A DNA stretch of 64,000 nt, from sequence record OR670491; one strand, 5' to 3'. This DNA is from Escherichia phage vB_EcoM_JNE01. How positions within the stretch are numbered: the stretch's first letter is position 1; the number at the start of each line of letters is the position of its first letter. The notes under the pieces were generated by a model that saw only the letters and a program-made list of their open reading frames with translations, was not told the DNA's origin and searched no databases. This document shows positions 6,558-49,741 of the stretch, in pieces. The translations under genes and the position numbers were made by a program.

Positions 6558-6585
6558 TTGATATAACTAAAAAGTATGCTATACT
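6558..6585 (+). promoter_or_regulatory. sigma70-like promoter (TTGATA, 16-nt spacer, TGcTATACT)
   Basis: Motif upstream of the endolysin gene. Confidence 0.4.
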
Positions 6586-6701
6586 ACTTAAATGTTCCAA
6601 AGAACAACTGAGTACTGTAGAAAGTCCAATGAGGCTTTTGCAAATGGCCTCTTTGCCCTCTTTGTGATTGCTCATTGTTAACAACCAACAAAGGAGGCGT
6701 T

Positions 6702-32252: not shown

Positions 32253-34217
32253 TTATCTTAATGTTACCAATGTTCTTCCAGCAAACCTTACATCAGGTGA
32301 AGAAGGGATGCTAAAGACCACGTTAGTGCCGTTAAACGTCACGCTATCGACCTCAACTCGTGTATACACACCAGTACTCACTAGTTCCTGAATCTCTGCT
32401 GTAACGATGTTACTGGCTGTTACAGTGAGTGTATAGTAGTCACCACTAAGCACCCATGCAGACGCAGTGAATGGGTCAGTACGAACAGAACCAGAACCGA
32501 TTGGAACCCACTGTCCTTGTACTTTTTGCATTGATGTACGTTCGGTGTTGGAGTATGCAATCATACCATCTACACCTACACTGTTATCAATAGTAGCTAG
32601 TACTGGTAATTGAATACCATAACGGTTGAAACGTGTACGAATAGTACCATTATCAAGAATAGTTACGTCAGCGTAATTACCCATAGATACTTTTAAATCA
32701 GCACTTAGCAATTGAATAGTTGATTGGTTAGCTGTACTTTCTAAAGTAAAGATACCACTTTCCATTAGATTAAGATTTTTGAATCTATTACTTGCAGCAT
32801 TGAATACGGTATTAGCTGCAAAAGTACTTACACCATTGATAGTAACTGTATCAGTATTAGCATCACCTAAAACAGTATTACCTTTAACGTTCAGGTTACC
32901 ACTTGCTGTAATGTTAGTTACGTTCAAACCACCACTAAGAGTAGTTGCACCATCAACTGTCAAATCACCATGAAGTACTGTAATACCATTTCTAAATTCA
33001 GCTTGAACTTTGTTCATTGAACTTAGTGAGATAATATTACTATCACCACTAATACCTACGTTAGTATTAGTTGCATTATCAAAACGTATAGTTGGAGTAG
33101 CTGCTGGTGTTGTATTTGAATAGTAAAGTACTAATGCACCATTAGTTACACGTACACGTTCAGTTCCATTAGTCGTGAAACCAATAGTATCATCTTGTGG
33201 ATGGAAAATACCAGTATTCGGGTCAGACCATTTGGCTGGATCATTACCTGGGTTTGTTATTGGATCAAATGCGTTATTGTTAAATGACAATGCTGGAGCA
33301 GAGGCTGTACCATATGTTATACCAAAACGACCTGCACCTTTAGTTCCATCGTCATACATGGAATCACCATCACGACGAAGACCTTCAACTGCAATGTTAT
33401 CAAGCATAGTTTGAACAGTACTGGAGTTTTTAACGAACTCACGATTGTTTGCAATCATTACTGTATTATCATATAATACTGAAGCCGCTGCAATACTTGC
33501 TCTTGATTGACGCAAACGAATGTTTTTAGTATCAGTTATAATAATCCAGTCACCATCAGAAAGTGCGGTTTGGTTCATAGGTGAACCACTAGCAAATGCG
33601 TTTGTCAAATCAGTGTCTTGTGCAAGATTAACTAAACCAGTGTGACCTGTGGATGGAATTGAAGCAGTTACAATACGAGCAAATGCATAACTTACTAGTT
33701 TAGAACCAGCAACGATTGGATTGGAATCAACGTAATACATTATTTGAATCCAGTTCCCTTGACCAGTTGGGTTGGTAGGCGTAAATGTTACTGGACTTGT
33801 AGCTGGACTGTTTGCTTCAAAGTGAGCTTGTGCCGCGTCCATGATACCACGAACAACATAATAATCACCTTTAATACTTTCAGCAGGGGCTGGAAGTGGG
33901 CTTTGTGTTAGTGGAGGATCAATATCATCTTCAATAGGTGAATATGTACCAACGAATTGAAGACCACTGGTAATTGAATCAGGTAATTGTGAAGTTAATA
34001 GTTTACCATTGTTATCTAAGTTAGCAAATCTTCTATATGAAACCGTCCCATCTTCAAAATCAAGTACACCTTCAAACGCTTTCCATTCTTGGTTGTATCG
34101 AAACATACCAGACCTGATAACATCAGTTGTTTGTTTAGTTGGTGCTTTAGGTAATTCTAGAAAGGATTTACTATCTATAATTACACCGCCATCACCTCTA
34201 ATTCGATTTATACTCAT
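32253..34217 (-). CDS. tail fibre protein
   Basis: 654 aa, Thr/Ser/Asn/Gly-rich beta-type repeats (NGTERVRVTNGALVL); GAGGAAA SD. Confidence 0.55.
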   Translation of the reverse strand: MSINRIRGDGGVIIDSKSFLELPKAPTKQTTDVIRSGMFRYNQEWKAFEGVLDFEDGTVSYRRFANLDNNGKLLTSQLPDSITSGLQFVGTYSPIEDDIDPPLTQSPLPAPAESIKGDYYVVRGIMDAAQAHFEANSPATSPVTFTPTNPTGQGNWIQIMYYVDSNPIVAGSKLVSYAFARIVTASIPSTGHTGLVNLAQDTDLTNAFASGSPMNQTALSDGDWIIITDTKNIRLRQSRASIAAASVLYDNTVMIANNREFVKNSSTVQTMLDNIAVEGLRRDGDSMYDDGTKGAGRFGITYGTASAPALSFNNNAFDPITNPGNDPAKWSDPNTGIFHPQDDTIGFTTNGTERVRVTNGALVLYYSNTTPAATPTIRFDNATNTNVGISGDSNIISLSSMNKVQAEFRNGITVLHGDLTVDGATTLSGGLNVTNITASGNLNVKGNTVLGDANTDTVTINGVSTFAANTVFNAASNRFKNLNLMESGIFTLESTANQSTIQLLSADLKVSMGNYADVTILDNGTIRTRFNRYGIQLPVLATIDNSVGVDGMIAYSNTERTSMQKVQGQWVPIGSGSVRTDPFTASAWVLSGDYYTLTVTASNIVTAEIQELVSTGVYTRVEVDSVTFNGTNVVFSIPSSPDVRFAGRTLVTLR

Positions 34218-34308: not shown

Positions 34309-35091
34309 TTAACGAGTGCGTTCTGGAATTTCTACCCCTTCATACACCCATTTTGCTGCTAACTGTAGTTGGCGAATAGGTTCATCACCTACATCTTGTA
34401 CTGCATTAATTGCAGAAACTTGTGCATCACATTCAGCGAATACTGCATCAATCATAGCAAACAATTCATCATTTAGTTGAGTCATTTCTGCTGCTGAAAG
34501 AGTTAAAATTGCATCTGCAAGATATAAAGAAACTGATTCTTTACCAGCTTGAACTTGTGTGTAATAGTTTAGAACCATTTGACGACCAGCAATATCAGTT
34601 GGAATTAAATGATCTTTGAACTTATAACCAGCGGTTGAACGTTCAGAACGTGCACTATAGGTTCTTGCTACTAGTTCACTTTGTACATCAATGAAATTTG
34701 AATCCACATAATTGTAAGTTTTAAGAGCAGTTAGTGCTTTATAATCCCCTTGTGCTTCTTCAATAAAAGTAACTTCAGGTTGACTGGAATCTTTTAATTT
34801 GACGAATTCTAGATATTCACCAATTGCGTTAGTATTCCCGACATTTTTATTTTCCAACCACCAGAAACCTTCTTCTTTACGTACATCATCATTTCCTACA
34901 GGAGCCGGAGAGTTAGGAGAAACCGAGATGCCGTATAGTGGACGAATGTCAGAATACATGTTAAAATATTCTTTCCCTTCATCTGGGGTTGCGATAGTGC
35001 GAGGCTTCAATCCTTTTACGTTAACTGGATTGGAAATGATATTTCCGAGTTCGTAATTTTCTTGAGAGCTACCCTTAACAAATGTAAACAT
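34309..35091 (-). CDS. hypothetical structural protein (fibre module)
   Basis: ATG with AAGGTGG SD; ORF track begins at GTG 35100. Confidence 0.45.
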   Translation of the reverse strand: MFTFVKGSSQENYELGNIISNPVNVKGLKPRTIATPDEGKEYFNMYSDIRPLYGISVSPNSPAPVGNDDVRKEEGFWWLENKNVGNTNAIGEYLEFVKLKDSSQPEVTFIEEAQGDYKALTALKTYNYVDSNFIDVQSELVARTYSARSERSTAGYKFKDHLIPTDIAGRQMVLNYYTQVQAGKESVSLYLADAILTLSAAEMTQLNDELFAMIDAVFAECDAQVSAINAVQDVGDEPIRQLQLAAKWVYEGVEIPERTR

Positions 35092-35173
35092 ATAAACCAC
35101 CTTATTTTATTTTTTTTTGAATTAGTATCGAAAAACCAGTACTGATCATTGTGACCAGTACTGGGGACATCAA

Positions 35174-38100
35174 TTATGAAGTACGTTGAGCAATAAACAA
35201 GTCAATAACGTTACTTACACCATCATATACTGCTTGGTAGATAGTAACACTGTTCGCTGCTAGGTTCTGTTCACCATCCACAATAGAGTAAGATGGGTCA
35301 GCAGTTAGTACACGGTTACCAGTTGCATCTTGCTTCGCATACATGAAGATAGATGCAGCTTTACCACCACCAATCAGGCCAGCAATTGGTGCTAGTGTGG
35401 TGTTCTGGTCTAGAGTGATAAAGTACACACTAGTAGAGCCATCAGGAGTCCATGTACCAGCCGGAGCAACAGTACTGGAAGTAACTTGTGATGGGATAAC
35501 ATCATACTTCTTAGTAGTTACAGAAGTAGTTACAAAGTTAGCTTCGTCAGTAGTGAATACACCAGCAACTTCAATACCTTTTTCGAAAGTAGCTTTCTCA
35601 ATGAAAGTACTTGTTCCGTTAACTGTGATAACATCTGCTGCTGCATCACCTAGTGTTACGCTACCAGTGGTAGTTAGTGCACCAGATATATTTACAGCCG
35701 CTAGGGTACTTGTACCAGTTACTGCTAGAGTTGAACCGATTGTTGCAGTGCCAGAAGTTGTTAGGTTAGTAACAGAAGCTTCTGCTAGTGTTGCTTTACC
35801 AGTTACACCTAGTGTACCACCAACAGTTGCTGCACCAGTTACGCCTAAAGTAGTTCCAACAGTTACTGCACCAGTGAAGGTTCCACCAACACCACTTACG
35901 TTACCACTGAACTCACCATCAACGCCTTTAACTTTACCAGTACTGGTGATTGCACCAGAACCTAAAGTACCAGTGATTGTCGCTGCTCCACCAACTGTTA
36001 AGTTACCAGTTGATTGCATTGAACCACCTTTAACTAGGTTAGTACTTGTTAGTGATTTAACGTTTACATCAGCATTTGATTGGTCAACGTTGGCATATAG
36101 AACACCACCAACTGTAAAGTTACCAGTAGTAACAACGTTACCGTTAACTGTTAAGTTGTTGTTTTGTGATCCAACTGCACCAAATGTACCAGAGTTTGCA
36201 ATAACTGCTGCGTCAGTTGAAATGTTACCAACTGCGGATAGAGTTGCAGAAGCTTCAATTGCATATGGTTCTAGTGTTTGACCACTTACGTCGATATCGG
36301 CGTTAATGCCACCTTCAACACGTAGTTTACCAGCAATAAAAGTATCAGGGAAAATCTGAACAGTTTCAGGTTGTTCACCAACTTTAACACCAACTACTAG
36401 GTTTGCACCAGTTTTAACTGTACCAGTTTCTAGTGAACCAGAAGTTACTTTGCCAGTTACTTTTGCATCAGCAGCTACAGTTAGTGCATCACCGGAAGCG
36501 GAGGACAATGCCAATGATGGAGCAGAAACAGCACCAGTTACACCTAAAGTGCCACCAACAGTTGCGTTACTTGTTACACCTAGTGTACCACCGAATGTAC
36601 CGTTTGTATCACTGTGGATAGCAGCAGAAGTAGACAAACTCTTCGCAACGATATCAGATGTTGTTAGGTCTAAACCACCAGCAGGAGTAAATGTACCGCT
36701 TACTGTTAGGTCATTAGTGAAAGATGAATTACCAGCCATAGTTAAACCAGCAGTACCAACAATACTTGTTGCAGAAACTGCACCAGTATCTAGTGAACCA
36801 GTTGTTGCTTTACCAGTTACACCTAAAGTATTACCTAAAGTAACAGCACCAGTTGTAGATAAAGTACCAGCTACAATTGCATTACCTTTAACATCAAGAC
36901 CAGTACCAGAAGCATTGGACAATGTTAGGGACGGAGCAGAAACTGCACCAGTTACACCTAGTGTACCAGCGATAGTTGAGTCACCACCAATAGTTGCCCC
37001 CGCAGTGCTCTTAATTGTGGTTGCCACGTCAAGGCTGTTTGCAGTAATATCAGAAGTAGATAGATCCAAACCACCCACTGGAGTGAATACACCGTTAACC
37101 GTTACAGCATCAGCAAATGTTGCAGCACCAGTTACACCTAGTGTACTACTAAATGTTCCAGATGTTGCAGAAACTGCACCAGTATCTAACGAACCAGTAG
37201 TTGCTTTACCTGTTACACCAAGAGTACCACCAACAGTTTGATTTCCGGTAACAGTAAGAGTCCCAGTTTGTGCATCAACAGTTGTGATTTTACCTGAACC
37301 ACTGATATCAGTAGTAGATACACCACCACTTAGAGTACTCAAACCAGTTGCTTTTAGGGTTGTCGCAACATCAAGACTGTTTGCTGTAATGTCTGCACCA
37401 CTTAGATCCAAACCACCTTCAGGAATAAATTCACCTTTAACAGTTAGTTTTTGAACTACTGAATCACCAGTTACGGTTAGAGCAGAAGAAGTTAAACCAC
37501 CGTTCAAAGTTGCTGCACCAGTAACACCAAGTGTACCACCGACAGCCGCATTAGAAGTTACTGAAGCGTTTTCTAGAGTTGCAGTACCGGAGATATTTGC
37601 ACCTTGTGCAGTGATACTACCAGTATCAACACGTACACCACCAGCTACAACTTGAATACCACCTGTATTAACAGTTAGTTTATTACCAACAGTTGCTGCA
37701 CCAGTTAGAGTGCTTGTACCAGCTACAGACAAGTTACCGGAAACGGCTGGGCTACCAGTTACATTACCAGTTGTTAGAACTAGATCAGCACCAACAGTAG
37801 TATTACCGACAGAAGCTAAAGTGTTTGCAGTTACATCAGAAGCAGATAGGTCAAATGTACCAGCTACTACCAAGTCACCACCGATATTTGCACCACCAGT
37901 AGTAGTGATTGATTTAGCACTAACATCAGTTGTTGCTAGGTCAATTGCACCTGGAGTTACAGTTCCGGTTACAGTTAAATCACCTGTTACTTTAGTGTTG
38001 CTTGCAATTTCCACACCAGTTTCGTTAGAAATGGTTGGAGTTACCAAGGAAACAGCAGTTGCTTGACCAGATACTGTTAGTGAAGTTCCAATTACTGCAT

Positions 38101-41100
38101 CTGCACTTGTGCGTAGACTTGTTAGAATTGATGGACCTTCAACAGATAGCTCAGTTGCATTAACTGCATTAATAGTTGCAGTAGTAGATTTAAGTACTGG
38201 AAGTACGTTAGCATTAACTAAGTCAGTACTTTGAATAATACCAGCAGAAGATAGTGATTTAACACTAACATCAGCAGCACTAAGATCAACAGTGCCAGCT
38301 ACTACTAAGTTACCACCAATGTTTGCACCTTCGGTTGTTGTAATAGATTTAGCACTAACATCAGTAGTGGTTAGGTCAATAGAACCTGGAGTTACGGAAC
38401 CAGTCACTACTAGATTACCAGTTACGGTAGTGTCGTTTTTAATTTCAACACCAGCAGCATTTGCAATTGATGGAGTAGTTAGTGAACCAACGGTAGCATT
38501 ACCAGTTACATCAAGAGTAGTACCCACAGATACTGCACCAGTAGCATCGAGTGAAGCTACATTAGATGCACCACTAACATTTAGTGCGGTTACATTTGCA
38601 GTTCCAACAGTTGCTGTGGTACTATTAAGTACTGGAAGTACGTTTGCATCAGTTGCGTTAGTAGAAGTTACAATACCTGGAGTAGTTAAAGATTTAACAC
38701 TAACGTCTGCTGCACTAAGATCAACTGTACCAGCTACTACTAAGTTGCCACCGATAGATGCACCAGCAGTTGTAGATATGGATTGAGCACTAACATCAGT
38801 CGTTGATAGATCAATTGCACCTGGGGTAAGTGTACCAGTGACAGTTACATTATCAGTAAAAGTAGTGTTACCGTTAATAGTTGGTGAAGTTAGAGTTCCA
38901 GTTGATAATGAACCAGTAGTTGCTGCACCAGTTAAATTCATAGAAGAACCAGCGATAGCTACACCTTCGATATTACCAGTTACTTTCAAAGAAGAACCAG
39001 AAATAGCTGCTGCACTAACGTTACCAGTTGCAGTGATTGCACCAGCACTTACATCGGCTAGGGTACTTGCACCAGCAACACTTAGGGTTGTGGTTACATC
39101 AACTTTATTAGGAGCAATATCAAGACCATCAACGTTAGCATCTGCTACAACACCAGTTGTAGTTCCAGTTACTACTAGGTCTTTAACTGTTACTGTTTGA
39201 CCAGTTACTGTCACATTCCCGCTAAATGCACCCGCTGCACCACTTACATCACCACTGAATGTACCGTTCACACCACTTACATTACCAGTAAATGTACCAT
39301 CAACACCGCTCACATTACCACTGAACTCACCACCAACGCCTTTTACGTTACCAGTACTGGTAATTGCTCCAGAGTTTAGTGCTCCAGTCACGTTAGCAGT
39401 TCCACCAACGAGTAAGTTAGCATTAATAGTTGCACCACCAGTTGATTCTAATGATGAAGATTTAATTTCACCAGCCGCAATAACGGAATTAGGTGTTAAA
39501 TCCTGACCACTCACATCAACTGTTAGACCAGTTACGACACCAGTGAAGTCTACATCATTAAGAATGGTTTTACCATTAACTTTTAGACGAGGTGTTGCTG
39601 GGCTTTGTGTTGAGTTACCTAGAATTTCTACATAATCTAATTTGTTTAGACCTTTACCTGTAATACCATAGGTCGCAAGAGACTCATCACCAAAAGTTGC
39701 AGTTTTTTGTACAGTAAGAGTTACCGGAGCCATAGATTCAGACTGGATTTCGTTCTGTAGTAGAACTGTTGGACGTTGACCTGCTGCGGAATAACCAAAA
39801 CCTAGTTTAACGTCAGCATTTGCAACGTTTTGACCAAGGGTAATGGCTTTAACAGTTGCAGTTGTGTTGTTACCAGTGATGTTTGCACCTAATGTAACTG
39901 CTCCGTTAAGACCAGTAGCACCACTTACGTTCAAACTGGTAGCCTGGATATCATCTAAATCAAATGTACCACCTAATGTTCCAGAAACATTGATGTTATT
40001 GAAGTTTGCAGTACCAGTACTTTCAATATTAGGTAATGTTGCAGTTCCAGTTACTTCTAAATCAGTGACCTTAGTTAGTCCTTTGGTTACTTCGAGTAAA
40101 GGAGTACTAGGATCTTGTGTTAAGTTACCACTAATAGTTACATAATCTAATTTGTTTAGACCTTTACTTGCGATACTATAGGTGGAAAGAGATTCATCAC
40201 CAAACGTCGCACTTTTTAGTACGTTTAGGTTAGTTGGTGACATTAATTCGGTTTGAATTTCGTTTTGTAGAACTACAGTTGGGCGAAGCCCTGCCGCTGA
40301 ATATGTAAAACTCAAGCGATCAGTACTACTTGCTGCGTTAGCACCCAATTTAATGTCTTTGAATGTCGCAGTTGTATTGATACCAGTGATGTTTGCACCT
40401 AATGTAACTGCTCCGTTAAGACCAGAAGCACCACTTACGTTCAATGAAGTTGCATTAATGTCATCAAGACTGAATGTACCACCAAGAACACCATTTATGT
40501 TAATATCATTGAAGTTAGCTGTACCAGTACTTTCAATATTAGGAATAGTAGCAGAACCAGTTACTTCGAAATCAGTTACTTTAGTTAAACCTTTAGTAAC
40601 TTCAAGTAAAGGAGTAGTTGGTGATTGAACTGTGTTACCACTAATAGATACATAATCTAATTTGTTTAGACCTTTACCTGTGATACCGTAAGTATCGAGA
40701 GACTCATCACCAAATGTTGCAGTTTTGAGTACGTTTAGGTTTGTTGGTGACATTAATTCAGATTGAATTTCGTTCTGTAGAACAACTGTAGGTCGTTGAC
40801 CTGATGCTGAATAGGTAAAACTCAAGCGATAAGTACTGCTTGCTGAGTTTGCACCCAATTTAATGTCTTTGAATGTCGCAGTACTATTGATACCAGTAAC
40901 GTTAGCACCAAATGTAACAGCACCTTGTAAACCAGAAGCACCACTTACGTTCAATGTAGTTGCATTAATGTCATCAAGGCTGAATGTACCGCCTAGTGTA
41001 CCACTAATATTAACATCTTTGAAGTTTGCTGTACCAGTGCCAGTGATAGTTTCACTAGAAATTGCAGTGATTGTTGCTTCATTTGCAGTTAATTTATCAA

Positions 41101-41536
41101 AAGCAGCAGTTGTGCCTACACCAGCAGTGATGTTACCATCAAATTGTGTAGTTCCGGTGACTTCTAATTGGTCAACTGTTGTGTTTTTAAGAACAGCAGA
41201 ACCAGCAGTTTGATTAATATCGTTGGCAAATGACGCAGTGCCGTTAAAAGATGCATTGGAGTTAACAGTTGCAGTATCAGAACCGACAACAGCATCACCA
41301 ATTACAGAATTACCTTTAATATCTACGCCACCATTAAGAGATGCTTTACCAGCTACGTCTAGGGTAGAAGTGATATTAGCAGTTGCTGCTTCAATTGCAG
41401 TAAATGTTGCATTTGCGAAAGAAACTGTACCATTTACGGTTACATTTTTCTCAAATACAGCATTACCTTTAACCAAAAGATCTTTATTTACCGTAGCACC
41501 ACCAGTAACATCTAGATCCGTCTTTATAGAGTACAT
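35174..41536 (-). CDS. giant repeat-rich tail fibre protein (2120 aa)
   Basis: T/S/G/N/V-rich; three tandem ~165-aa repeats near the N-terminus (LGGTFSLDDINAT ... GKGLNKLDYV); both termini near-identical to the next gene; AATGGAGGG SD. Confidence 0.7.
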   Translation of the reverse strand: MYSIKTDLDVTGGATVNKDLLVKGNAVFEKNVTVNGTVSFANATFTAIEAATANITSTLDVAGKASLNGGVDIKGNSVIGDAVVGSDTATVNSNASFNGTASFANDINQTAGSAVLKNTTVDQLEVTGTTQFDGNITAGVGTTAAFDKLTANEATITAISSETITGTGTANFKDVNISGTLGGTFSLDDINATTLNVSGASGLQGAVTFGANVTGINSTATFKDIKLGANSASSTYRLSFTYSASGQRPTVVLQNEIQSELMSPTNLNVLKTATFGDESLDTYGITGKGLNKLDYVSISGNTVQSPTTPLLEVTKGLTKVTDFEVTGSATIPNIESTGTANFNDININGVLGGTFSLDDINATSLNVSGASGLNGAVTLGANITGINTTATFKDIKLGANAASSTDRLSFTYSAAGLRPTVVLQNEIQTELMSPTNLNVLKSATFGDESLSTYSIASKGLNKLDYVTISGNLTQDPSTPLLEVTKGLTKVTDLEVTGTATLPNIESTGTANFNNINVSGTLGGTFDLDDIQATSLNVSGATGLNGAVTLGANITGNNTTATVKAITLGQNVANADVKLGFGYSAAGQRPTVLLQNEIQSESMAPVTLTVQKTATFGDESLATYGITGKGLNKLDYVEILGNSTQSPATPRLKVNGKTILNDVDFTGVVTGLTVDVSGQDLTPNSVIAAGEIKSSSLESTGGATINANLLVGGTANVTGALNSGAITSTGNVKGVGGEFSGNVSGVDGTFTGNVSGVNGTFSGDVSGAAGAFSGNVTVTGQTVTVKDLVVTGTTTGVVADANVDGLDIAPNKVDVTTTLSVAGASTLADVSAGAITATGNVSAAAISGSSLKVTGNIEGVAIAGSSMNLTGAATTGSLSTGTLTSPTINGNTTFTDNVTVTGTLTPGAIDLSTTDVSAQSISTTAGASIGGNLVVAGTVDLSAADVSVKSLTTPGIVTSTNATDANVLPVLNSTTATVGTANVTALNVSGASNVASLDATGAVSVGTTLDVTGNATVGSLTTPSIANAAGVEIKNDTTVTGNLVVTGSVTPGSIDLTTTDVSAKSITTTEGANIGGNLVVAGTVDLSAADVSVKSLSSAGIIQSTDLVNANVLPVLKSTTATINAVNATELSVEGPSILTSLRTSADAVIGTSLTVSGQATAVSLVTPTISNETGVEIASNTKVTGDLTVTGTVTPGAIDLATTDVSAKSITTTGGANIGGDLVVAGTFDLSASDVTANTLASVGNTTVGADLVLTTGNVTGSPAVSGNLSVAGTSTLTGAATVGNKLTVNTGGIQVVAGGVRVDTGSITAQGANISGTATLENASVTSNAAVGGTLGVTGAATLNGGLTSSALTVTGDSVVQKLTVKGEFIPEGGLDLSGADITANSLDVATTLKATGLSTLSGGVSTTDISGSGKITTVDAQTGTLTVTGNQTVGGTLGVTGKATTGSLDTGAVSATSGTFSSTLGVTGAATFADAVTVNGVFTPVGGLDLSTSDITANSLDVATTIKSTAGATIGGDSTIAGTLGVTGAVSAPSLTLSNASGTGLDVKGNAIVAGTLSTTGAVTLGNTLGVTGKATTGSLDTGAVSATSIVGTAGLTMAGNSSFTNDLTVSGTFTPAGGLDLTTSDIVAKSLSTSAAIHSDTNGTFGGTLGVTSNATVGGTLGVTGAVSAPSLALSSASGDALTVAADAKVTGKVTSGSLETGTVKTGANLVVGVKVGEQPETVQIFPDTFIAGKLRVEGGINADIDVSGQTLEPYAIEASATLSAVGNISTDAAVIANSGTFGAVGSQNNNLTVNGNVVTTGNFTVGGVLYANVDQSNADVNVKSLTSTNLVKGGSMQSTGNLTVGGAATITGTLGSGAITSTGKVKGVDGEFSGNVSGVGGTFTGAVTVGTTLGVTGAATVGGTLGVTGKATLAEASVTNLTTSGTATIGSTLAVTGTSTLAAVNISGALTTTGSVTLGDAAADVITVNGTSTFIEKATFEKGIEVAGVFTTDEANFVTTSVTTKKYDVIPSQVTSSTVAPAGTWTPDGSTSVYFITLDQNTTLAPIAGLIGGGKAASIFMYAKQDATGNRVLTADPSYSIVDGEQNLAANSVTIYQAVYDGVSNVIDLFIAQRTS
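39540..41040 (-). repeat. three tandem ~500-bp intragenic repeats in giant fibre gene 1
   Basis: Repeated DNA such as CATAATCTAATTTGTTTAGACCTTTACCTG near 39641, 40141 and 40661; boundaries approximate. Confidence 0.55.
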
Positions 41537-41570
41537 ATAGTTCCCTCCATTTTGGGTTATTAAAATACCA

Positions 41571-41594
41571 TGTTTATGTTTATATATTTAGTTG
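41571..41594 (-). promoter_or_regulatory. candidate late-promoter motif (minus sense AACTAAATATATAAACAT)
   Basis: Nearly the same motif upstream of both giant fibre genes. Confidence 0.35.
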
Positions 41595-41629
41595 AATTAA
41601 TTGTTTTGGAACTCTCAAAGATAATTATT

Positions 41630-41674
41630 TAGGGAAAAGAAAAAGCCAACACGAGGTTGGCTTTCTTTTATTTG
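41630..41674 (-). terminator. terminator hairpin (AGCCAAC/GTTGGCT) between the giant fibre genes
   Basis: Stem-loop with U-rich flanks on both strands. Confidence 0.55.
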
Positions 41675-44600
41675 TTATACACGTTGAGCAATGAAGGTAT
41701 CAAATACAGTACTGAAACCATCATAAACAACTTGAATGATACTAACTTGGTTCACAACTGAACTTACCTGACCAGATACAACTGCGTATTCAGCAGGGAT
41801 AGTTAGAACAGCATCACTAACAGTTGGTGTTACGTAAATGTATACAGAACACGCTTCACCGCTACCGATTAGACCAGTAATTGGTGCTAGGGTAGTGTTT
41901 TGGTCAAGAGTTAGACGATATACGTTACTAGAACCATCTGGAGTCCATGTACCGGATACAGAAGCGGTAGAAGCTACTACTGAAGTTGGTAGAACAGAGT
42001 ATTTCTTAGTGATTACAGTACTGGTTGTGAAATCAGCATCAGTAGTGTTCAATGCACCAGTCACCGTTAGGGCTTTATCAATCACAACGTTCTCTTTGAA
42101 GGTTGCAGTGCCATTAACAGTGATAGTATCAGCGGCAGCATCACCTAGAACAACATTACCATTAGCGGTTAATGTACCAGTAAAGGTTGCAGAACCAGTT
42201 ACGGCTACACTTGCTAGTGTTGCTAAACCTGTTGTAGTTATGGATGCAGTTGAAATTTCACTTTGAACGCTTAAGTTTTCAGAGAATGTTGCTGCACCTG
42301 TAACGGCTACACCACCATTCAGACTCGCTAGTCCAGTTACTGCAAGGGTAGAGCCGGTTTCTAAACTTCCACCAGTAATTTTACCAGTTGCAGTAATTGT
42401 TGTACCAGCAGAAATTGAAGTCCCCGCATTCACATTGTTGGTTGCAGTTAAAGATTTAACAGCTACATCAGAATCCGCTTGGTTCAATTGTGCGTTTAGT
42501 ACTCCTGTTACTGTGAAGTCACCGTTGGTTACAACGTTACCATTTACGGTTAGGTTGTTGTTTAGTGAACCAGAATCACCAATTGTTGCTGCTTTAGCAA
42601 TCATGGTTGCACCAGAAGTGATGTTACCAACTGCACTAACAGTTGAATCAGCCGCAATTGCGAATGGTTCTAATGTTTGACCGCTTACATCGATATCGGC
42701 GTTAATACCACCATCAACACGTAGTTTACCAGCAATATATGTATCAGGAACAATATGAACTGTTTCTGGTTGAACTGCTAGAGGTGTGCCAACTGTAAAT
42801 GATGTACCAGTTTTCACTGCACCACTTGCGGTTAGATCTGCAACGGTTGTTGCTCCAGTCACACCTAGTGTACCACCAACTGTAGTATTACCAGTAGAAG
42901 ATAAAACTCCTGCCCCGACAGTTCCAGATGCAGTTAATGATGTTGCATTGATGTCTGCTGTTGATATTCCACCACTCAATGTACTCAAACCAGTAACACT
43001 TAAAGTAGTTGATGAAGACAAGCTATTTGCAGAAACATCAGCACCAGTTAGATCCAAACCACCTTGTGGAATCAATGTACCTTCAACTGTTACGTTACCT
43101 TTTGCCACGGTTGCACCAGTTACTTCCAAAGACGCAGCAGTTGCTTTACCAGAGGTAGATAGAGTTGAAACACTTGTTGCACCAGCTTGTACTACACCAA
43201 GAGTTGAGGTTCCAGTAACACCAAGAGTGGTTGTTACGGATGCACTTGATAGGGTACTTGCCCCAGCAGTTAGCCCAGCAAGAGATGTTGTACCAGTTAC
43301 GCCTAGTGTACCACCAACGGTAGTATTACCAGAGATTACAGGAGCACCAGTAATTACCCCAGTTGTTAGTACTAAATCAGCACCAACAGTTGTGTTTCCA
43401 GTACTTGCTAGTGTTGCAGCTTGTAGGTTTGTACCACTTAGGTCAAATGTACCATCAACTGTTAAATTACCTGCAACGTGTGCATTACCAAGAGAGTTAA
43501 GTGACTTAACAGAAACATCAGTAGTGCTTAGATCAATTGCACCAGCAGTTAAAGTACCAGATGCATGGAAATCACCAGTAACATTTGTGGATTTTGAAAT
43601 TTCAACTGTTGCACCAGGAGCCGTGAAGGATGCACCACTAATTGCACCAGTTGCCGCTACAGAACTAGCATCAATTGCAGTTGCAGATACAGCAGCAAGG
43701 GTAGAAGCACCAACAACATCAAGTGAGCCAGAAGCAGAAATATTACTTGTATTAATATTAGCTACAGTACTTTCCCCAGATACATTCAATGTTGTTGCTT
43801 TTGCTGCACCTAATGTACTATCGGTTGAAGATAGTTTAGGGAATGTATTGGTTTTTAATGCATCAGTACTAACAAAACTTAATGCAGATACATCTGCACC
43901 ACTTAAATCAACAGTACCTGCAACAGATAGGTTTCCACCGATAGTAGCACCTTCAGTTGTGGTTATTGAGTTAGAAGTTATGTCAACTGAGCTTAGGTCA
44001 AGACCACCTTGCGGGGTAAAGACACCTGTTACGGTTAGGTCTTTAGCTGCTACTACATTACTAGCAAGATTCAATGTTCCCGCACCAGACGCTCCAGCTT
44101 GAACCGTAGGAGTTGTTACAGAAGTTGAAATTGTAGCAGTTGTAGAAGATAAACGTGAACCAGAAACAACACCAGTACTGGTCAATGTTCCAACTTTTGC
44201 AGCACCAGTAGTTGTGATAGTACCACCAGATACATCACCGGAAGCTACTACAGAAGATGCGTTAACAACACCAAAGGTACTTGGGTTAGTTGCAGTAATA
44301 GATTTTGCAGTTACATCAGCAGAACTAAGATCGATAGCACCAGATACAGCAAGAGAACCACCTACGGTTACGTTTCCAGTAGTAGTTAAAGATGCAGCAC
44401 TTACATCAGTAGTACTTAAATCAATCCCACTTGGAGTTAGTGTTCCAGTGATCGTAACATCATTAGCAAATGTAGTATTCCCACTGATAGTTGGAGCAGT
44501 TAGTGAACCAACAGTCGCAGCACCAGTTACTTCTAAAGAACCAGCAGTTGCTTTACCGGACACACCTAGTGAATTACCTAAAGTAACAGCACCAGTTACA

Positions 44601-46561
44601 CCTAATGTACCACCAACTGTAGCATTACTCACTACATGAAGACCAGTACCAGATGCACCATTTAGTGTTAGATACCCTGCCGATGCTGCACCAGATATAG
44701 TTGCTGAACTTGCATTAACAGCAGCCAATGTGGTTTCACCAGCAACACTTAGTGTTGTTGTTACATCAACTTTATTAGGAGCAATATCAAGGCCATCTAC
44801 GTCGGCTACGGCGGTTACACCAGTTGTGGTTCCAGTTACTACTAGATCCTTAACAGTTACTGTTTGGCCTTGTACGGTTACATTACCATCTAAAATACTA
44901 TCTCCAGTTACACCTAATGTTCCACCAAGAGACGTTCCACCTGTGACTTCTAGATAGCCAGCAGTGGTTTTGCCAGTAGAAGTTAATGTTGTTCCCTGAA
45001 TACCAGACGTTGCAGTTACGGAGTTAGGAGTTAGATCCTGCCCACTAACATCAACAGTTAGGCCAGTAACAGTTCCTGTGAATTCTACATCACCTAGAAC
45101 CGATTTACCAGCAACAGAAAGTTGTGGAGTTCCTGGAGCTTGAGTAGCGTTACCAGCGATTTCTAGATAATCTAGTTTGTTTAGACCTTTACCTGTGATA
45201 CCATATGTTGCTAGTGAAGCATCACCAAAGGTTGCAGTTTTCTGAACAGTTAATGTAGCAGGAGACATTAATTCAGATTGAATTTCGTTCTGTAGAAGAA
45301 CAGTTGGGCGTTGACCAACGGCAGTATAAGCAAAACCAACTTTGGTATCAGCACTTGCAGATGCTGGACCTAGGTTTAGTGCTTTAATATTTGCAGTAGT
45401 GTTAGTACCACTGATATTACCACCTAGAGTTACAGAACCTTCAAGACTAGTTAGGCCAGATACTTTTAGTGTTTGTGCTTCGATATCACCTAAACTGAAT
45501 GTACCACCAAGAACACCACTTACGTTAATGTTATTGAAGTTTGCAGTGCCAGTACTTTCAATATTAGGAATAGTAGCAGAACCAGTTACTTCGAAATCAG
45601 TTACTTTAGTTAAACCTTTAGTAACTTCAAGTAAAGGGGTAGCTGGTGATTGAACTGCGTTACCACTAATAGTTACATAATCTAATTTGTTTAGACCATT
45701 ACCAGTGATACCAAAAGTACTTAAAGATGCATCACCAAAAGTAGCAGACTTAAGAACAGTTAGGGATGCTGGAGACATTAGCTCGGACTGAATTTCGTTT
45801 TGTAGAATTACAGTTGGGCGTTGGCCTGGTGCGGTATAAGTGAAGCTTAAACGGTAAGCACTGCTTGCGGAGTTAGCACCGATTTTGACATCTTTAAATG
45901 TTGCAGTTGTGTTGATACCAGTGATGTTCGCACCTAGAGTAACAGCACCCTGTAGGCTACTTTGACCAGACACAGTTAGGGTAGTTGCGTTTACATCAGA
46001 AAGACTGAATGCACCACCTAGTGTACCACTTATGGTAACATCGTTAAAGCTGGCTGTACCAGTACTATTAATGTCGGTTGCATTTAAAGTTGCAATAGTT
46101 GCTTCGTTTGCAGATAGTTTATCAAATGCAGCAGTAGTTCCTGCGTCAGCATTAATATTACCTTTAAAAGTTGAAATTCCATCAACTGATAGTGAGTCAA
46201 CAGATGTTGCTTTCAAATCAACATTACCAGCAGTTTGACGAATATTACCACCAAATGAAACACCAGAGTTAAAAGTTGCTGCGGAGTTAATTGTAGCAGT
46301 ATCAGTACCTGGTGCTACTGCACCAATCACAGTGCTACCTACCACTTCAACACCACCATTAAGAGATGCTTTACCAGCTACATCTAGGGTAGAAGTGATA
46401 TTAGCAGTTGCTGCTTCAATTGCAGTGAATGTAGCATTTGCAAAAGAAACTGTACCATTTACGGTAAGATTCTTATTGAATACTGCATCACCTTTAACTA
46501 ATAGATCTTTACCGACTACAGCACCACCAGTAATATCTAGATCAGTTTTAATCGAGTACAT
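41675..46561 (-). CDS. giant repeat-rich tail fibre protein, paralog (1628 aa)
   Basis: Same N-terminus (MYSIKTDLD) and C-terminal ~100 aa as gene 1; two copies of the ~165-aa repeat; AATGGAGGG SD. Confidence 0.7.
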   Translation of the reverse strand: MYSIKTDLDITGGAVVGKDLLVKGDAVFNKNLTVNGTVSFANATFTAIEAATANITSTLDVAGKASLNGGVEVVGSTVIGAVAPGTDTATINSAATFNSGVSFGGNIRQTAGNVDLKATSVDSLSVDGISTFKGNINADAGTTAAFDKLSANEATIATLNATDINSTGTASFNDVTISGTLGGAFSLSDVNATTLTVSGQSSLQGAVTLGANITGINTTATFKDVKIGANSASSAYRLSFTYTAPGQRPTVILQNEIQSELMSPASLTVLKSATFGDASLSTFGITGNGLNKLDYVTISGNAVQSPATPLLEVTKGLTKVTDFEVTGSATIPNIESTGTANFNNINVSGVLGGTFSLGDIEAQTLKVSGLTSLEGSVTLGGNISGTNTTANIKALNLGPASASADTKVGFAYTAVGQRPTVLLQNEIQSELMSPATLTVQKTATFGDASLATYGITGKGLNKLDYLEIAGNATQAPGTPQLSVAGKSVLGDVEFTGTVTGLTVDVSGQDLTPNSVTATSGIQGTTLTSTGKTTAGYLEVTGGTSLGGTLGVTGDSILDGNVTVQGQTVTVKDLVVTGTTTGVTAVADVDGLDIAPNKVDVTTTLSVAGETTLAAVNASSATISGAASAGYLTLNGASGTGLHVVSNATVGGTLGVTGAVTLGNSLGVSGKATAGSLEVTGAATVGSLTAPTISGNTTFANDVTITGTLTPSGIDLSTTDVSAASLTTTGNVTVGGSLAVSGAIDLSSADVTAKSITATNPSTFGVVNASSVVASGDVSGGTITTTGAAKVGTLTSTGVVSGSRLSSTTATISTSVTTPTVQAGASGAGTLNLASNVVAAKDLTVTGVFTPQGGLDLSSVDITSNSITTTEGATIGGNLSVAGTVDLSGADVSALSFVSTDALKTNTFPKLSSTDSTLGAAKATTLNVSGESTVANINTSNISASGSLDVVGASTLAAVSATAIDASSVAATGAISGASFTAPGATVEISKSTNVTGDFHASGTLTAGAIDLSTTDVSVKSLNSLGNAHVAGNLTVDGTFDLSGTNLQAATLASTGNTTVGADLVLTTGVITGAPVISGNTTVGGTLGVTGTTSLAGLTAGASTLSSASVTTTLGVTGTSTLGVVQAGATSVSTLSTSGKATAASLEVTGATVAKGNVTVEGTLIPQGGLDLTGADVSANSLSSSTTLSVTGLSTLSGGISTADINATSLTASGTVGAGVLSSTGNTTVGGTLGVTGATTVADLTASGAVKTGTSFTVGTPLAVQPETVHIVPDTYIAGKLRVDGGINADIDVSGQTLEPFAIAADSTVSAVGNITSGATMIAKAATIGDSGSLNNNLTVNGNVVTNGDFTVTGVLNAQLNQADSDVAVKSLTATNNVNAGTSISAGTTITATGKITGGSLETGSTLAVTGLASLNGGVAVTGAATFSENLSVQSEISTASITTTGLATLASVAVTGSATFTGTLTANGNVVLGDAAADTITVNGTATFKENVVIDKALTVTGALNTTDADFTTSTVITKKYSVLPTSVVASTASVSGTWTPDGSSNVYRLTLDQNTTLAPITGLIGSGEACSVYIYVTPTVSDAVLTIPAEYAVVSGQVSSVVNQVSIIQVVYDGFSTVFDTFIAQRV
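45080..46080 (-). repeat. two tandem ~500-bp intragenic repeats in giant fibre gene 2
   Basis: Repeat core near 45160 and 45675; some ~130-nt stretches near-identical to gene 1. Confidence 0.5.
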
Positions 46562-46603
46562 TTAGTTCCCTCCATTTGAATGATTATAAACATAACCATT
46601 CTC

Positions 46604-46630
46604 GTTAATATGTATATATTTAGTTTATGA
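46604..46630 (-). promoter_or_regulatory. candidate late-promoter motif (minus sense AACTAAATATATACATAT)
   Basis: Shared motif. Confidence 0.35.
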
Positions 46631-46633
46631 TAT

Positions 46634-46666
46634 AAAAAAACCAGACCTGATACTAAAGGTCTGGTT
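46634..46666 (-). terminator. terminator hairpin (ACCAGACCT/AGGTCTGGT)
   Basis: 9-bp stem downstream of the 46674 gene stop with A/T runs. Confidence 0.6.
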
Positions 46667-46673
46667 ATATTTT

Positions 46674-47570
46674 TTATTTACCGGATATTACAACCTTGCC
46701 ACTAAATGCAACATAGGATGTGAATATAACATTACCACTAGCATCAATTTGAGTTTCAGCAGTAACAGCTTCAAAAGGTGCAAGAGCAGTACTGCCTTGT
46801 ACTTTATTACCGTATAGAGAAACGTATAGATTGTCAGGGGTTTGTTTATGATCTGCTGCTGGAATAGTTAGAGTGAATTGATCACCGGAAGCTACCCAAT
46901 CAGCCTGATTAATAAGTTTACTGTATGGTACTGTCATAGTTGTTGCTCCTATAATATTAATTTTAACACTTGCGTATTCTGAAAGCTGACCAACTACTTC
47001 TAGAGTTATATCACCAATACCAGAAACTGTAACGTTAGTTTGGAATACAGAATCCAAATCGACATCACCTGGGTCACCTTGCAATTGAACCATAATATCA
47101 GCACCGCGACCATGAATAGATTCAGGAAGAGTGTATGTATATTTGTCAGATGAACCTGGCTCTAATACAAATGCTGAAACTGGAACAGTATGTGTGGTTA
47201 CATAAGAACTATCACTACCAGGAGTAGATGATTTAAGTGGTTTCCATACACCAAGGTCTTTAATATAAATCTGAAGTGTATTTTCAGCATCAACTAGGAA
47301 ATACACATCACCATCGGTTCCCAATGCATCAGCAGGAGCTACAGTACCGCGAAGAATACCACCAGCACCACCGCCACCATGTGCGTTTAAATATCCCAAG
47401 GTTACCAGATGGGTATTAGCTGTTGGGTCAGCCGCAGAAATTGGAAGAAGACCAGTTCCTGTATAGTTTTGAATTTGCACAACACTACCATTCGTAGTGA
47501 TTTGTGCACCATTTTTACCAAGTATGAAGGTCTTCTTCATGGTTCCTTCTAAATTAGAAAAAACTGCCAT
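46674..47570 (-). CDS. tail spike/fibre protein with conserved N-terminal anchor module and Gly-rich hinge
   Basis: N-terminus MAVFSNLEGTMKKTFILGK paralogous to the 49727 module; start set to the second ATG (AAGGAG 9 nt upstream). Confidence 0.5.
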   Translation of the reverse strand: MAVFSNLEGTMKKTFILGKNGAQITTNGSVVQIQNYTGTGLLPISAADPTANTHLVTLGYLNAHGGGGAGGILRGTVAPADALGTDGDVYFLVDAENTLQIYIKDLGVWKPLKSSTPGSDSSYVTTHTVPVSAFVLEPGSSDKYTYTLPESIHGRGADIMVQLQGDPGDVDLDSVFQTNVTVSGIGDITLEVVGQLSEYASVKINIIGATTMTVPYSKLINQADWVASGDQFTLTIPAADHKQTPDNLYVSLYGNKVQGSTALAPFEAVTAETQIDASGNVIFTSYVAFSGKVVISGK

Positions 47571-49378: not shown

Positions 49379-49727
49379 TTGACAAAATATCTTTATTAAC
49401 GTATAGTGATTTTACCCATTTACCATCAATTTTTAGAAATATATCAACAATCCCTTCACTGTTAGTTTGGAAATATGTATAATTATTTTTACCGATATCA
49501 TCTGAAGGGATGGCTTCACCAAACATTACGGTTGGGTGATCTTCTAGATACTTAACATTGACAGCAGAATCGGCATCAACCGCAGACCCTACTTTAACTG
49601 GTAGAAATTTTTCACCAAATGAATCCTTTATTGAAATGGAATCATCTGAAAAACTAATCAAGGCTCCTTTTTTACCAAGGATGAATGAGGGCTGCATGGT
49701 TCCTTCTAAATTAGAAAAAACTGACAT
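49302..49727 (-). CDS. tail spike N-terminal anchor module (frame-separated from the depolymerase)
   Basis: MSVFSNLEGTMQPSFILGK; GGGGG SD; overlaps the depolymerase ORF by 77 nt in another frame. Confidence 0.5.
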   Translation of the reverse strand: MSVFSNLEGTMQPSFILGKKGALISFSDDSISIKDSFGEKFLPVKVGSAVDADSAVNVKYLEDHPTVMFGEAIPSDDIGKNNYTYFQTNSEGIVDIFLKIDGKWVKSLYVNKDILSSVNGRRLYWIDNRRNTSTSTVLCNS

Positions 49728-49741
49728 AATCAATACCCCCG

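What the first reader, a model, noticed from the sequence alone, without database searches (positions are those of the whole stretch)
35174..46561. Two tandem paralogous giant fibre genes with cassette-like 500-bp repeats
The 2120-aa and 1628-aa ORFs share near-identical 5' and 3' ends, the same SD and the same upstream AT-rich motif. They differ in central content and in copy number (three versus two) of a roughly 165-aa repeat, and stretches of about 130 nt are almost identical between them. This is the footprint of duplication followed by recombination, a plausible route to receptor-binding or host-range switching.
Basis: seen in the sequence. Interest (0 to 1): 0.7.

Follow-up and report, generated by a model that had tools for sequence, protein, structure and literature searches.

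The report
Two tandem giant phage tail fibres
A jumbo E. coli phage carries two side-by-side copies of a very long modular tail-fibre gene that keep exchanging and re-copying pieces, which is a real but fairly ordinary way for phages to vary their host-attachment fibres.

Summary
The two ORFs are real: 35174-41536 (2120 aa, "A") and 41675-46561 (1628 aa, "B"), both on the minus strand. The window is an Asteriusvirus-like (121Q/PBECO4 group) jumbo coliphage, 97.9% identical here to Escherichia phage Turkey5, which has the same two gene lengths. So this is not an assembly artefact.

Both belong to PHROG 4549 (tail fibre). Orthologues were found in virions by mass spectrometry. The closest protein with a PDB entry is the long tail fibre of the flagellotropic phage phiTE.

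The 510-nt (170-aa) repeat is confirmed, three copies in A and two in B, as are the shared SD and upstream motif. Two short tracts are near-identical and carry a gene-conversion signature.

The "near-identical 3' ends" are not confirmed: the C-terminal domains are 52% identical and fall into two old orthology classes. The two-gene arrangement is already present in at least 10 deposited genomes.

Repeat number varies among close relatives. One relative, TH47, carries an exact up/down fusion gene.

Best reading: two co-expressed alternative long fibres with a shared N-terminal anchor, evolving by duplication, unit copy-number change and recombination. Receptor, position on the virion and host-range effect are untested. 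New member of a known kind; moderate-low interest.

The parts
35174..41536 (-). Fibre gene A ('dn', 2120 aa). It is the orthologue of the single fibre gene of 121Q (gp571) and phAPEC6 (gp256).
   Evidence: ORF. PHROG 4549 tail fibre, E=2.7e-222. C-terminal class shared with the single-copy genes. dN/dS 0.14 against Turkey5.
41675..46561 (-). Fibre gene B ('up', 1628 aa), the extra upstream paralogue. Its own C-terminal class ends in ...F[IV]AQRV.
   Evidence: ORF. PHROG 4549, E=1.8e-185. About 70% identical in the C-terminal domain to the 'up' genes of fEgEco12 and Turkey3. dN/dS 0.08 against Turkey5.
41039..41536 (-). N-terminal region of A (aa 1-166), the putative virion-attachment end.
   Evidence: MYSIKTDL... 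is invariant across the family. 76% identical to B over the first 110 aa. The attachment role is inferred.
46064..46561 (-). N-terminal region of B (aa 1-166).
39509..41038 (-). Three 170-aa (510-nt) units of A: U1 40529-41038, U2 40019-40528, U3 39509-40018. U1 and U2 are the 'internal' type and U3 the 'terminal' type.
   Evidence: Repeat families D3/D4. Unit HMM hits at aa 167-336, 337-506 and 507-674. U1-U2 84% identical. Unit tree.
45044..46063 (-). Two 170-aa units of B: U1 45554-46063, U2 45044-45553.
37721..38956 (-). 145-aa (435-nt) repeat in A, about three copies (aa 861-1272).
   Evidence: Repeat families D6/D11. Protein self-diagonals at offsets 145 and 290.
36542..37360 (-). 132-aa repeat in A, two copies (aa 1393-1665), with more degenerate neighbours.
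   Evidence: D8/D15
38337..38546 (-). Patch of about 200 nt in A that is only 78% identical to Turkey5, in an otherwise more than 99% identical genome. Read as imported by recombination.
   Evidence: Substitutions fall at all codon positions; dS 0.50.
41327..41446 (-). Gene-conversion tract 1 in A (gene nt 91-210); the partner in B is 46352-46471.
   Evidence: 94% nt identity, third-position identity 0.85.
40487..40696 (-). Gene-conversion tract 2 in A (gene nt 841-1050, the U1/U2 junction); the partner in B is 45512-45721.
   Evidence: 92% nt identity, 89-nt exact run, third-position identity 0.89.
35177..35521 (-). C-terminal domain of A, about 115 aa, 'dn/single' class.
   Evidence: Conserved from phiTE to Asteriusvirus: profile against 9cuy_g E=2.9e-44. 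52% identical to B. The fold is unresolved because AF2 failed.
41678..42022 (-). C-terminal domain of B, about 115 aa, 'up' class.
41537..41674 (-). Intergenic region between B and A: terminator of B (41640-41666), promoter-like ACTAAATATATA (41581-41592) and the SD stretch (41537-41552).
46562..46673 (-). Region upstream of B: terminator of the preceding gene (46639-46666), ACTAAATATATA (46613-46624) and the SD stretch (46562-46577).
35136..35164 (-). Terminator-like hairpin after gene A.
34309..35100 (-). Neighbouring 263-aa DUF4376 protein. It is a candidate fibre partner (tip protein or chaperone).
   Evidence: Pfam DUF4376, E=9e-5, below the curated cut-off. PHROG 17968, virion structural protein. 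Its counterpart CBB_225 was detected in virions (PMC5259590). Second most divergent gene against 121Q at 60%. The partner role is inferred.

Best explanation
A and B are two separately transcribed paralogous genes. Each most likely encodes a very long, probably trimeric beta-helical virion fibre of a 121Q-like jumbo coliphage.

They share a conserved N-terminal end, so both can probably be mounted on the same virion site. They differ in shaft length and in the C-terminal domain (52% identical). By scaling from the phiTE long fibre, B would be about 105 nm and A about 137 nm. The phage would therefore display two fibre types of different reach and probably different binding properties.

A is the orthologue of the single fibre gene of 121Q and phAPEC6. 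B is an old extra copy that is kept under purifying selection.

The locus evolves by ordinary homologous recombination acting on its internal and tandem repeats:
- gain and loss of whole 170-aa (and other) units;
- short gene-conversion tracts between the two copies;
- import of patches from other phages;
- occasional unequal crossover that fuses the two genes.

Shown: gene structure, homology, virion presence of orthologues, and the recombination footprints. Inferred: trimeric beta-helix, shared anchor site, lengths, and any receptor or host-range role.
For: Gene structure and expression signals
- Both ORFs are intact, and each has its own terminator, promoter-like motif and SD. The motif AACTAAATATATACATATTAAC is conserved upstream of orthologues in other Asteriusvirus genomes.

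Family and virion presence
- Both match PHROG 4549, tail fibre.
- Orthologues were detected in virions by mass spectrometry: phAPEC6 gp256 at 180 kDa (PMC7247149), CBB_226 (PMC5259590) and fENko-Kae01 WNV47359.

Closest protein with a PDB entry
- This is the phiTE long tail fibre phiTE_241, PDB 9CUY chain g. Whole-protein E=1.9e-28 for B and 3.3e-24 for A. The match covers a unit-like module and the whole C-terminal third.
- That fibre is described as a trimer of 512 A with an AlphaFold-predicted extended beta-helix (PMC11972413).

The arrangement is real and old
- Turkey5, an independent genome, has the same arrangement and the same gene lengths.
- At least 10 deposited phages have two copies.
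- The C-terminal domains form two orthology classes.

Both copies are maintained
- dN/dS against Turkey5 is 0.14 for A and 0.08 for B.

The locus is a divergence hotspot
- Against 121Q the fibres are 48-52% identical, while flanking genes are 76-97%.
- 212 of the 354 nt differences to Turkey5 across 35.8 kb fall in gene A.

Recombination footprints
- Unit copy-number change appears as exact 170-aa and 112-aa indels between 121Q, UB and JP4, which are otherwise 93-100% identical.
- The third unit arose independently in this lineage and in JP4.
- Gene conversion between A and B is supported.
- TH47 is an exact up/down fusion.
Against: - No structure could be obtained. AF2 monomer models of the unit and of the C-terminal domain had pLDDT 36 and 44, so the beta-helix and trimer rest on the phiTE description only.
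- The N-terminal anchor of phiTE (residues 1-175), which is the only part modelled in 9CUY, has no detectable counterpart here. The attachment site on the virion is therefore unknown.
- Within the 121Q group the C-terminal domain is well conserved (90-100%). That is unusual for a receptor-binding tip and leaves open that the binding determinant lies elsewhere, along the shaft or in the DUF4376 neighbour.
- There is no expression or virion data for the B-type copy in any phage.
- TH47 is an 'UNVERIFIED' record and could be an assembly collapse.
Confidence: 0.7

Rival explanations
1. The two proteins are the so-far unassigned 'hairy' whisker fibres seen on the tail (and capsid) of phAPEC6, CBB and fEgEco12, rather than baseplate long tail fibres. 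They would act in first contact with, or entanglement of, flagella or the cell surface.
For: - The hairs of CBB measure 119 +/- 10 nm, while its baseplate fibres are only 28.6 nm, and no gene has been assigned to the hairs (PMC5259590).
- Scaling from phiTE (793 aa for 512 A) gives about 100 nm for CBB_226 (1553 aa). That fits the hairs and not the short fibres.
- phAPEC6 and fEgEco12 also show hairy fibres.
- Relatives that carry this fibre family use flagella: phiTE, fENko-Kae01, and this is suggested for SHEFM2K.
Against: - The length scaling is crude.
- GAP32 has an orthologue, yet hairs were not reported for it.
- phAPEC6 hairs sit at three tail levels and on the capsid, which one gene product may not explain.
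- The phiTE homologue is a baseplate-attached fibre.
- There is no direct localisation data.
Confidence: 0.35
2. A and B are serial subunits of one jointed fibre (proximal and distal halves, as in T4 gp34/gp37), not alternative fibres.
For: Database records call the homologues 'long tail fiber proximal subunit'.
Against: - Most relatives have only one gene.
- A and B share the same N-terminal end, the same unit architecture and the same C-terminal domain family. They are therefore parallel versions, not complementary halves.
- No match to T4 gp34 was found in Pfam or in PDB sequences.
Confidence: 0.07
3. The repeat numbers, or the duplication itself, are an assembly artefact.
For: Repeats of 435-510 nt are of a size that short-read assemblers can mishandle. 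The TH47 record is flagged UNVERIFIED.
Against: - The repeat copies are only 60-89% identical at nucleotide level, so they are easy to assemble.
- Turkey5 independently gives 1628 and 2120 aa.
- The reading frames are intact and under purifying selection.
- The same architecture is found in many genomes.
Confidence: 0.02
4. A programmed cassette-switching system (invertible segment, shufflon or diversity-generating retroelement) drives the variation.
For: The two genes have alternative C-terminal domains, and a hypervariable patch separates near-identical phages.
Against: - Both genes are in direct orientation, and there are no inverted repeats of note in 32-52 kb.
- The neighbouring genes are all structural.
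- The patch differs at all codon positions with high dS (0.50) and no adenine-specific pattern. That fits import by recombination.
Confidence: 0.03

Closest known systems
Long tail fibre of Pectobacterium phage phiTE (phiTE_241, 793 aa; PDB 9CUY/9MJN chain g; Vequintavirinae)
   Same: Significant sequence homology: E=1.9e-28 for B and 3.3e-24 for A. It covers one 170-aa-unit-like module, the 'TG..TG.. DV.G.D..P' linker motifs and the whole C-terminal third including the terminal domain (profile E=2.9e-44). It is a virion fibre, and the paper describes it as a trimeric extended beta-helix.
   Different: phiTE's fibre is two to three times shorter, with one unit-like module instead of two or three and none of the 145- or 132-aa repeats. 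Its N-terminal helical 'rip-cord' anchor (residues 1-175, the only part modelled) does not align with the MYSIKTDL... N-terminus here. It is a single gene, not a tandem pair.
Single-copy orthologues in Asteriusvirus and Mimasvirus jumbo phages (121Q gp571, phAPEC6 gp256, CBB_226, fENko-Kae01 WNV47359)
   Same: Same genomic position between the same neighbours. Same N-terminus, the same units (two copies) and the same C-terminal domain class as gene A. They are virion proteins by mass spectrometry.
   Different: They have one gene instead of two. They are only 48-52% identical overall to A and B. Unit number is mostly two, whereas A has three.
Two-gene arrangement in fEgEco12, Turkey3, BF17, WPEC3/5, Ecwhy_1, EC.P1, vB_Ec-M-J, CMSTMSU and Turkey5
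   Same: An upstream gene of about 1640 aa followed by a longer downstream gene, each with its own C-terminal class. The 'up' and 'dn' genes also share high-identity tracts there.
   Different: In that group the downstream gene is 1906 aa, with two units and an N-terminus 53 aa shorter. Here it is 2120 aa with three units and the long N-terminus. The C-terminal domains are only about 70% identical to those of this window. Only Turkey5 matches closely.
Mosaic, duplicated tail-fibre genes of T-even and other phages (general knowledge: T4 gp37/gp38 modular exchange; dual receptor-binding proteins such as K1-5 or CBA120)
   Same: A host-attachment locus that is the most divergent part of the genome, with module shuffling by homologous recombination and more than one fibre type per virion.
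   Different: No sequence relationship was detected. The repeat units here are unusually long (170, 145 and 132 aa), and the unit is rare: 15 proteins among 1.84 billion cluster representatives.

Membership tests
PHROG 4549 (tail fiber protein) | Significant match to the family profile | tested here: met
   E=2.7e-222 for A and 1.8e-185 for B, eight matched stretches each.
phiTE-type long tail fibre (Vequintavirinae LTF) | Homologous C-terminal third and terminal domain | tested here: met
   B aa 1291-1626 aligns with phiTE aa 470-792. C-terminal profile against 9cuy_g gives E=2.9e-44.
phiTE-type long tail fibre (Vequintavirinae LTF) | N-terminal helical bundle that docks on baseplate wedge and sheath initiator ('rip-cord') | tested here: not met
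   No alignment to phiTE residues 1-175. The N-terminus here is a different, beta-rich MYSIKTDL... region.
phiTE-type long tail fibre (Vequintavirinae LTF) | Trimeric extended beta-helix | tested here: inconclusive
   AF2 monomer models were of low confidence, pLDDT 44 and 36. No trimer prediction is available with these tools.
Virion structural protein of RaK2-like jumbo phages | Detected in purified virions | not testable with these tools
   Shown only for orthologues: phAPEC6 gp256, CBB_226 and fENko-Kae01 WNV47359.
T4 gp34 'long tail fiber proximal subunit' (the name used in database records) | Sequence similarity to gp34 or its Pfam families | tested here: not met
   No Pfam family at E<=1 other than noise. 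No gp34 chain among the PDB matches at E<=1.
YadA-like trimeric autotransporter adhesin (annotation in PBECO4 and Yersinia phage records) | YadA head, stalk or anchor Pfam domains | tested here: not met
   No such Pfam hit at E<=1.
FliK hook-length control protein (annotation in CMSTMSU) | FliK Pfam domain | tested here: not met
   No such Pfam hit. The CMSTMSU record also has the genes fragmented.
Invertible or programmed tail-fibre cassette systems (Mu G segment, P1 C segment, DGR) | Inverted repeats flanking alternative 3' cassettes, or a template/variable repeat pair with adenine-specific changes | tested here: not met
   Only three weak inverted pairs (71-75% complementary, 32-38 nt) in 32-52 kb. 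Both genes are in direct orientation. The substitution spectrum of the variable patch is not adenine-specific. The rest of the genome was not searched for a recombinase or reverse transcriptase.

The most novel reading that the evidence does not exclude
These giant paralogues are the genes for the unassigned 'hairy' whisker fibres on the tails of Asteriusvirus and Mimasvirus jumbo phages. They would be flagellum-binding or entangling fibres related to the phiTE long fibre. Phages with two genes would carry two hair classes of different length (about 105 and 137 nm) and tip. Unit copy number would act as a length dial tuned by recombination.
Probability: 0.3. Interest if true: 0.55.

Novelty: new member of a known kind. 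Interest (0 to 1): 0.33.

Why it matters
The fibre locus is the fastest-changing part of this phage's structural region. It is therefore the first place to look when explaining or engineering host range in 121Q-like jumbo coliphages, which are being proposed for therapy.

The analysis gives three practical things:
- a map of exchangeable modules;
- natural examples of unit gain and loss and of a C-terminal domain swap (TH47);
- a link to the phiTE long fibre and to flagellum-dependent relatives, which suggests a testable receptor.

It also offers a candidate gene for the 'hairy' tail fibres, whose gene has not been assigned. None of this changes how phage fibre evolution is understood; it is a clear case of known processes.

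Tried and rejected
- AlphaFold2 on one 170-aa unit (6-row alignment) and on the last 199 aa of A (3-row alignment) gave pLDDT 36 and 44. No fold search was run, because matches to such models are meaningless.
- The search for homologous proteins with the C-terminal domain and with one unit returned only one short fragment each, so no deeper alignment could be built for structure prediction.
- A profile search for the unit across 1.84 billion representatives found only 15 proteins.
- A scan of IMG/VR viral contigs returned only a 348,532-nt contig, the same length as the 121Q genome, matching at 73%.
- Pfam found nothing in either fibre. The N-terminal profile gave only a weak hint (E=0.014) to a gamma-carbonic-anhydrase-like left-handed beta-helix chain, which is not used as evidence.
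- The 1661-aa ORF at 58988-63973 was tested as a possible third paralogue and rejected: no similarity, and it belongs to a different PHROG.
- I tested whether the variable patch against Turkey5 came from another copy of the 145-aa repeat. It did not.
- A BLASTP self-comparison returned only the diagonal and was replaced by a diagonal identity scan.
Full report
**What is there**

The region holds two long ORFs on the minus strand at exactly the reported coordinates. A is 35174-41536 (2120 aa, downstream) and B is 41675-46561 (1628 aa, upstream).

The window comes from a jumbo coliphage of the 121Q/PBECO4 (Asteriusvirus) group. The stretch 35000-46800 is 97.9% identical to Escherichia phage Turkey5, and the next best records cover only about 22% of it at about 77% identity. 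Turkey5 has the same two genes with the same lengths. The architecture is therefore reproduced in an independent genome.

**Checking the observation**

- Repeat: a 510-nt (170-aa) repeat occurs three times in A and twice in B (families D3/D4). An HMM built from the five units finds them at aa 167-336, 337-506 and 507-674 in A, and at aa 167-336 and 337-504 in B.
- Overall similarity: the first 500 residues of A and B are 71% identical.
- Near-identical tracts: nucleotide identity over the first 1434 nt is 75%, but two tracts stand out. Gene nt 91-210 is 94% identical and nt 841-1050 is 92% identical with an 89-nt exact run. None of 5000 codon-column permutations reached the observed 97.5% in a 120-nt window.
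- Upstream signals: both genes are preceded by a terminator hairpin, the motif ACTAAATATATA and the stretch AAATGGAGGGAACTA. These are the only two matches to the motif in the window at up to one mismatch, although two or more matches arose in 33 of 100 shuffles, so the count alone is not significant. The longer motif AACTAAATATATACATATTAAC is conserved upstream of the orthologues in other Asteriusvirus genomes. It is an inherited regulatory element and probably a late-type promoter; that last point is inference.
- What does not hold: the 3' ends are not near-identical. The last 200 residues are 52% identical and nucleotide identity there is about 68%.
- Further repeats in A: 145 aa x3, 132 aa x2, and a segment at aa 677-787 repeated at aa 1815-1925.

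**What the proteins are**

- Pfam finds nothing. PHROGs places both in family 4549, tail fibre.
- Orthologues at the same genomic position were detected in virions by mass spectrometry: phAPEC6 gp256 at 180 kDa (PMC7247149), CBB_226 (PMC5259590) and fENko-Kae01 WNV47359.
- The only PDB chain that matches is chain g of 9CUY/9MJN, with E=1.9e-28 for B and 3.3e-24 for A. It is phiTE_241, 793 aa.
- I identify phiTE_241 as the long tail fibre (LTF) of the flagellotropic myophage phiTE described in PMC11972413. The basis is that the only other annotated fibre, phiTE_236 (554 aa, Ig-domain containing), fits the paper's description of the short fibre (coiled coil plus Ig-like domains). The paper itself does not name the locus tag in the passages I read.
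- The alignment covers a unit-like module (B 380-535 with phiTE 205-366), linker motifs, and the whole C-terminal third. A profile of the terminal domain of about 125 aa matches phiTE 669-793 at E=2.9e-44.
- The paper describes the LTF as a trimer with a predicted length of 512 A and an AlphaFold-predicted extended beta-helix. Only residues 14-171 are modelled. That N-terminal anchor has no counterpart in A or B.
- My own AF2 runs on one unit and on the C-terminal 199 aa failed, with pLDDT 36 and 44. The fold therefore rests on homology to phiTE.
- The names used in database records (T4 gp34-like proximal subunit, YadA domain, FliK) are not supported by any Pfam or PDB match.

**History of the pair**

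- A tblastn census finds the family in 58 phage records of the RaK2-like jumbo group.
- Eleven records hold two places with the N-terminal query and ten with the C-terminal query. Ten Escherichia phages are two-copy in both searches: Turkey5, Turkey3, fEgEco12, BF17, WPEC3, WPEC5, CMSTMSU, Ecwhy_1, EC.P1 and vB_Ec-M-J. The rest, including 121Q, have one gene between the same neighbours.
- The C-terminal domains fall into two classes. The 'dn' class is shared with all single-copy genes; A is 70-72% identical to them, and they are 90-100% identical among themselves. The 'up' class is specific to the upstream copy; B is about 70% identical to fEgEco12 and Turkey3 'up'.
- The duplication, or the acquisition of a second allele, therefore predates the split between this lineage and the fEgEco12 group. 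A is the orthologue of the single gene.
- Both copies are under purifying selection between the window and Turkey5, with dN/dS 0.14 for A and 0.08 for B.

**Recombination footprints**

1. Gene conversion between A and B.
   - Third-codon-position identity is 0.85-0.89 in the two tracts against 0.53-0.60 elsewhere.
   - In the tracts B is closer to A (92-94%) than to its orthologue fEgEco12-up (77-78%). In control segments it is not.
2. Unit copy number.
   - 121Q, UB and JP4 are 93-100% identical along the fibre but differ by an exact 170-aa indel and an exact 112-aa indel.
   - The units form an 'internal' and a 'terminal' type. The extra unit of A is a lineage-specific copy of its own U1 (84% identical).
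   - The extra unit of JP4 lies between the two types: 75% identical to U1 and 85% to U2 of 121Q. Three units therefore arose at least twice.
3. Fusion.
   - The single gene of TH47 is 100% identical to fEgEco12-up over most of the last 1.5 kb compared, up to the crossover.
   - From there on, including the downstream intergenic region, it is 100% identical to fEgEco12-dn. The switch lies in a tract of about 400 nt where the two fEgEco12 genes are 90-100% identical.
   - This is what unequal crossover between the tandem genes would give. It moves a dn-type C-terminal domain onto an up-type shaft. The record is marked UNVERIFIED, so an assembly collapse cannot be excluded.
4. Import from other phages.
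   - The window and Turkey5 differ at 354 positions in 35.8 kb, and 212 of these lie in gene A.
   - A 200-nt patch (window 38337-38546) is only 78% identical. Its changes fall at all codon positions, and no donor was found among the sampled sequences.
5. Divergence hotspot.
   - Against 121Q the fibres are 48-52% identical and the adjacent DUF4376 protein 60%, while the flanking genes are 76-97%.

**How it most likely works**

- Each gene is its own transcription unit.
- The N-terminal 65 or so residues are nearly identical in A and B, and tract 1 keeps them so. This fits both fibres docking on the same virion partner (inference).
- The shafts differ by about 490 residues. Scaling from phiTE (793 aa for 512 A) gives about 105 nm for B and about 137 nm for A; this is a rough inference.
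- The C-terminal domains are diverged.
- The phage would thus carry two fibre types with different reach and probably different binding. Homologous recombination on the many direct repeats supplies length variants and domain swaps.
- No programmed mechanism is indicated: both genes are in direct orientation and there are no notable inverted repeats.

**Open points**

- Where the fibres sit on the virion is unknown.
- The baseplate fibres of CBB are 28.6 nm, whereas its unassigned tail 'hairs' are 119 +/- 10 nm. CBB_226 (1553 aa) scales to about 100 nm. Hairy fibres are also reported for phAPEC6 and fEgEco12. These proteins are therefore plausible candidates for the hairs, but this is unproven.
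- Relatives that carry the family depend on flagella. phiTE is flagellotropic. fENko-Kae01 fails to adsorb to non-flagellated mutants, and its only annotated long fibre is the orthologue. Flagella are suggested for SHEFM2K. The receptor of this phage is untested.
- The conserved C-terminal domain within the 121Q group is not typical of a receptor-binding tip. The divergent, virion-associated DUF4376 neighbour may take part in binding.

**Verdict**

It is wrong about the 3' ends and unproven about host range. The arrangement already exists, unremarked, in several deposited genomes, and the processes involved are the usual ones for phage fibre genes. It is a new member of a known kind, of moderate-low interest, with one more interesting but unproven reading (the hair-fibre and flagellum link).

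Noticed in passing
window 49367 (ORFs 47585-49378 and 49302-49733, minus strand): A one-base insertion relative to Turkey5 (GGACGGAG against GGA-GGAG) splits the colanic-acid-degrading tailspike gene into ORFs of 143 aa and 597 aa. The gene is intact (713 aa) in Turkey5, 121Q and fEgEco12. It is either a sequencing error or a real loss of a tailspike.
   Followed up: partly
window 34309-35100 (minus strand): The 263-aa DUF4376 protein directly downstream of fibre A is the second most divergent gene of the region against 121Q (60% identity; flanking genes 76-97%). Its CBB counterpart is abundant in virions. It may be a fibre-tip partner or a chaperone.
   Followed up: partly
L009 (Escherichia virus TH47, MT446416.1) 2434-7392: The single 1652-aa fibre gene is an exact fusion of the fEgEco12-type upstream gene (5' part) with the downstream gene (last ~190 aa plus the intergenic region). 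The crossover lies in a tract where the two genes are 90-100% identical. The record is UNVERIFIED, so it could be an assembly collapse.
   Followed up: yes
window 38337-38546: A 200-nt patch inside the second 145-aa repeat of gene A is only 78% identical to Turkey5, while the surrounding genome is more than 99% identical. No donor was found among the sampled relatives.
   Followed up: yes
window 41571-41592 and 46603-46624 (approximate extent of the 22-nt motif); the same position upstream of the fibre genes in L002, L006, L010, L011 and L012: The motif AACTAAATATATACATATTAAC is conserved upstream of the fibre genes across Asteriusvirus genomes. Similar AATAAATA-like boxes precede other structural genes in the window (for example upstream of 32253-34217 and 50982-51479). 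It may be a late promoter.
   Followed up: partly
window 42786-44102 (+), 35343-36281 (+), 36450-37241 (+): Long antisense ORFs (up to 438 aa) lie inside the fibre genes. They are most likely a by-product of the repetitive Gly/Thr/Val-rich coding sequence and not genes.
   Followed up: no
L018 (Klebsiella phage fENko-Kae01) 4891-7000: In the flagellum-specific relative fENko-Kae01 the syntenic cluster lacks the colanic-acid tailspike gene that lies upstream of the fibre genes in the coliphages.
   Followed up: no
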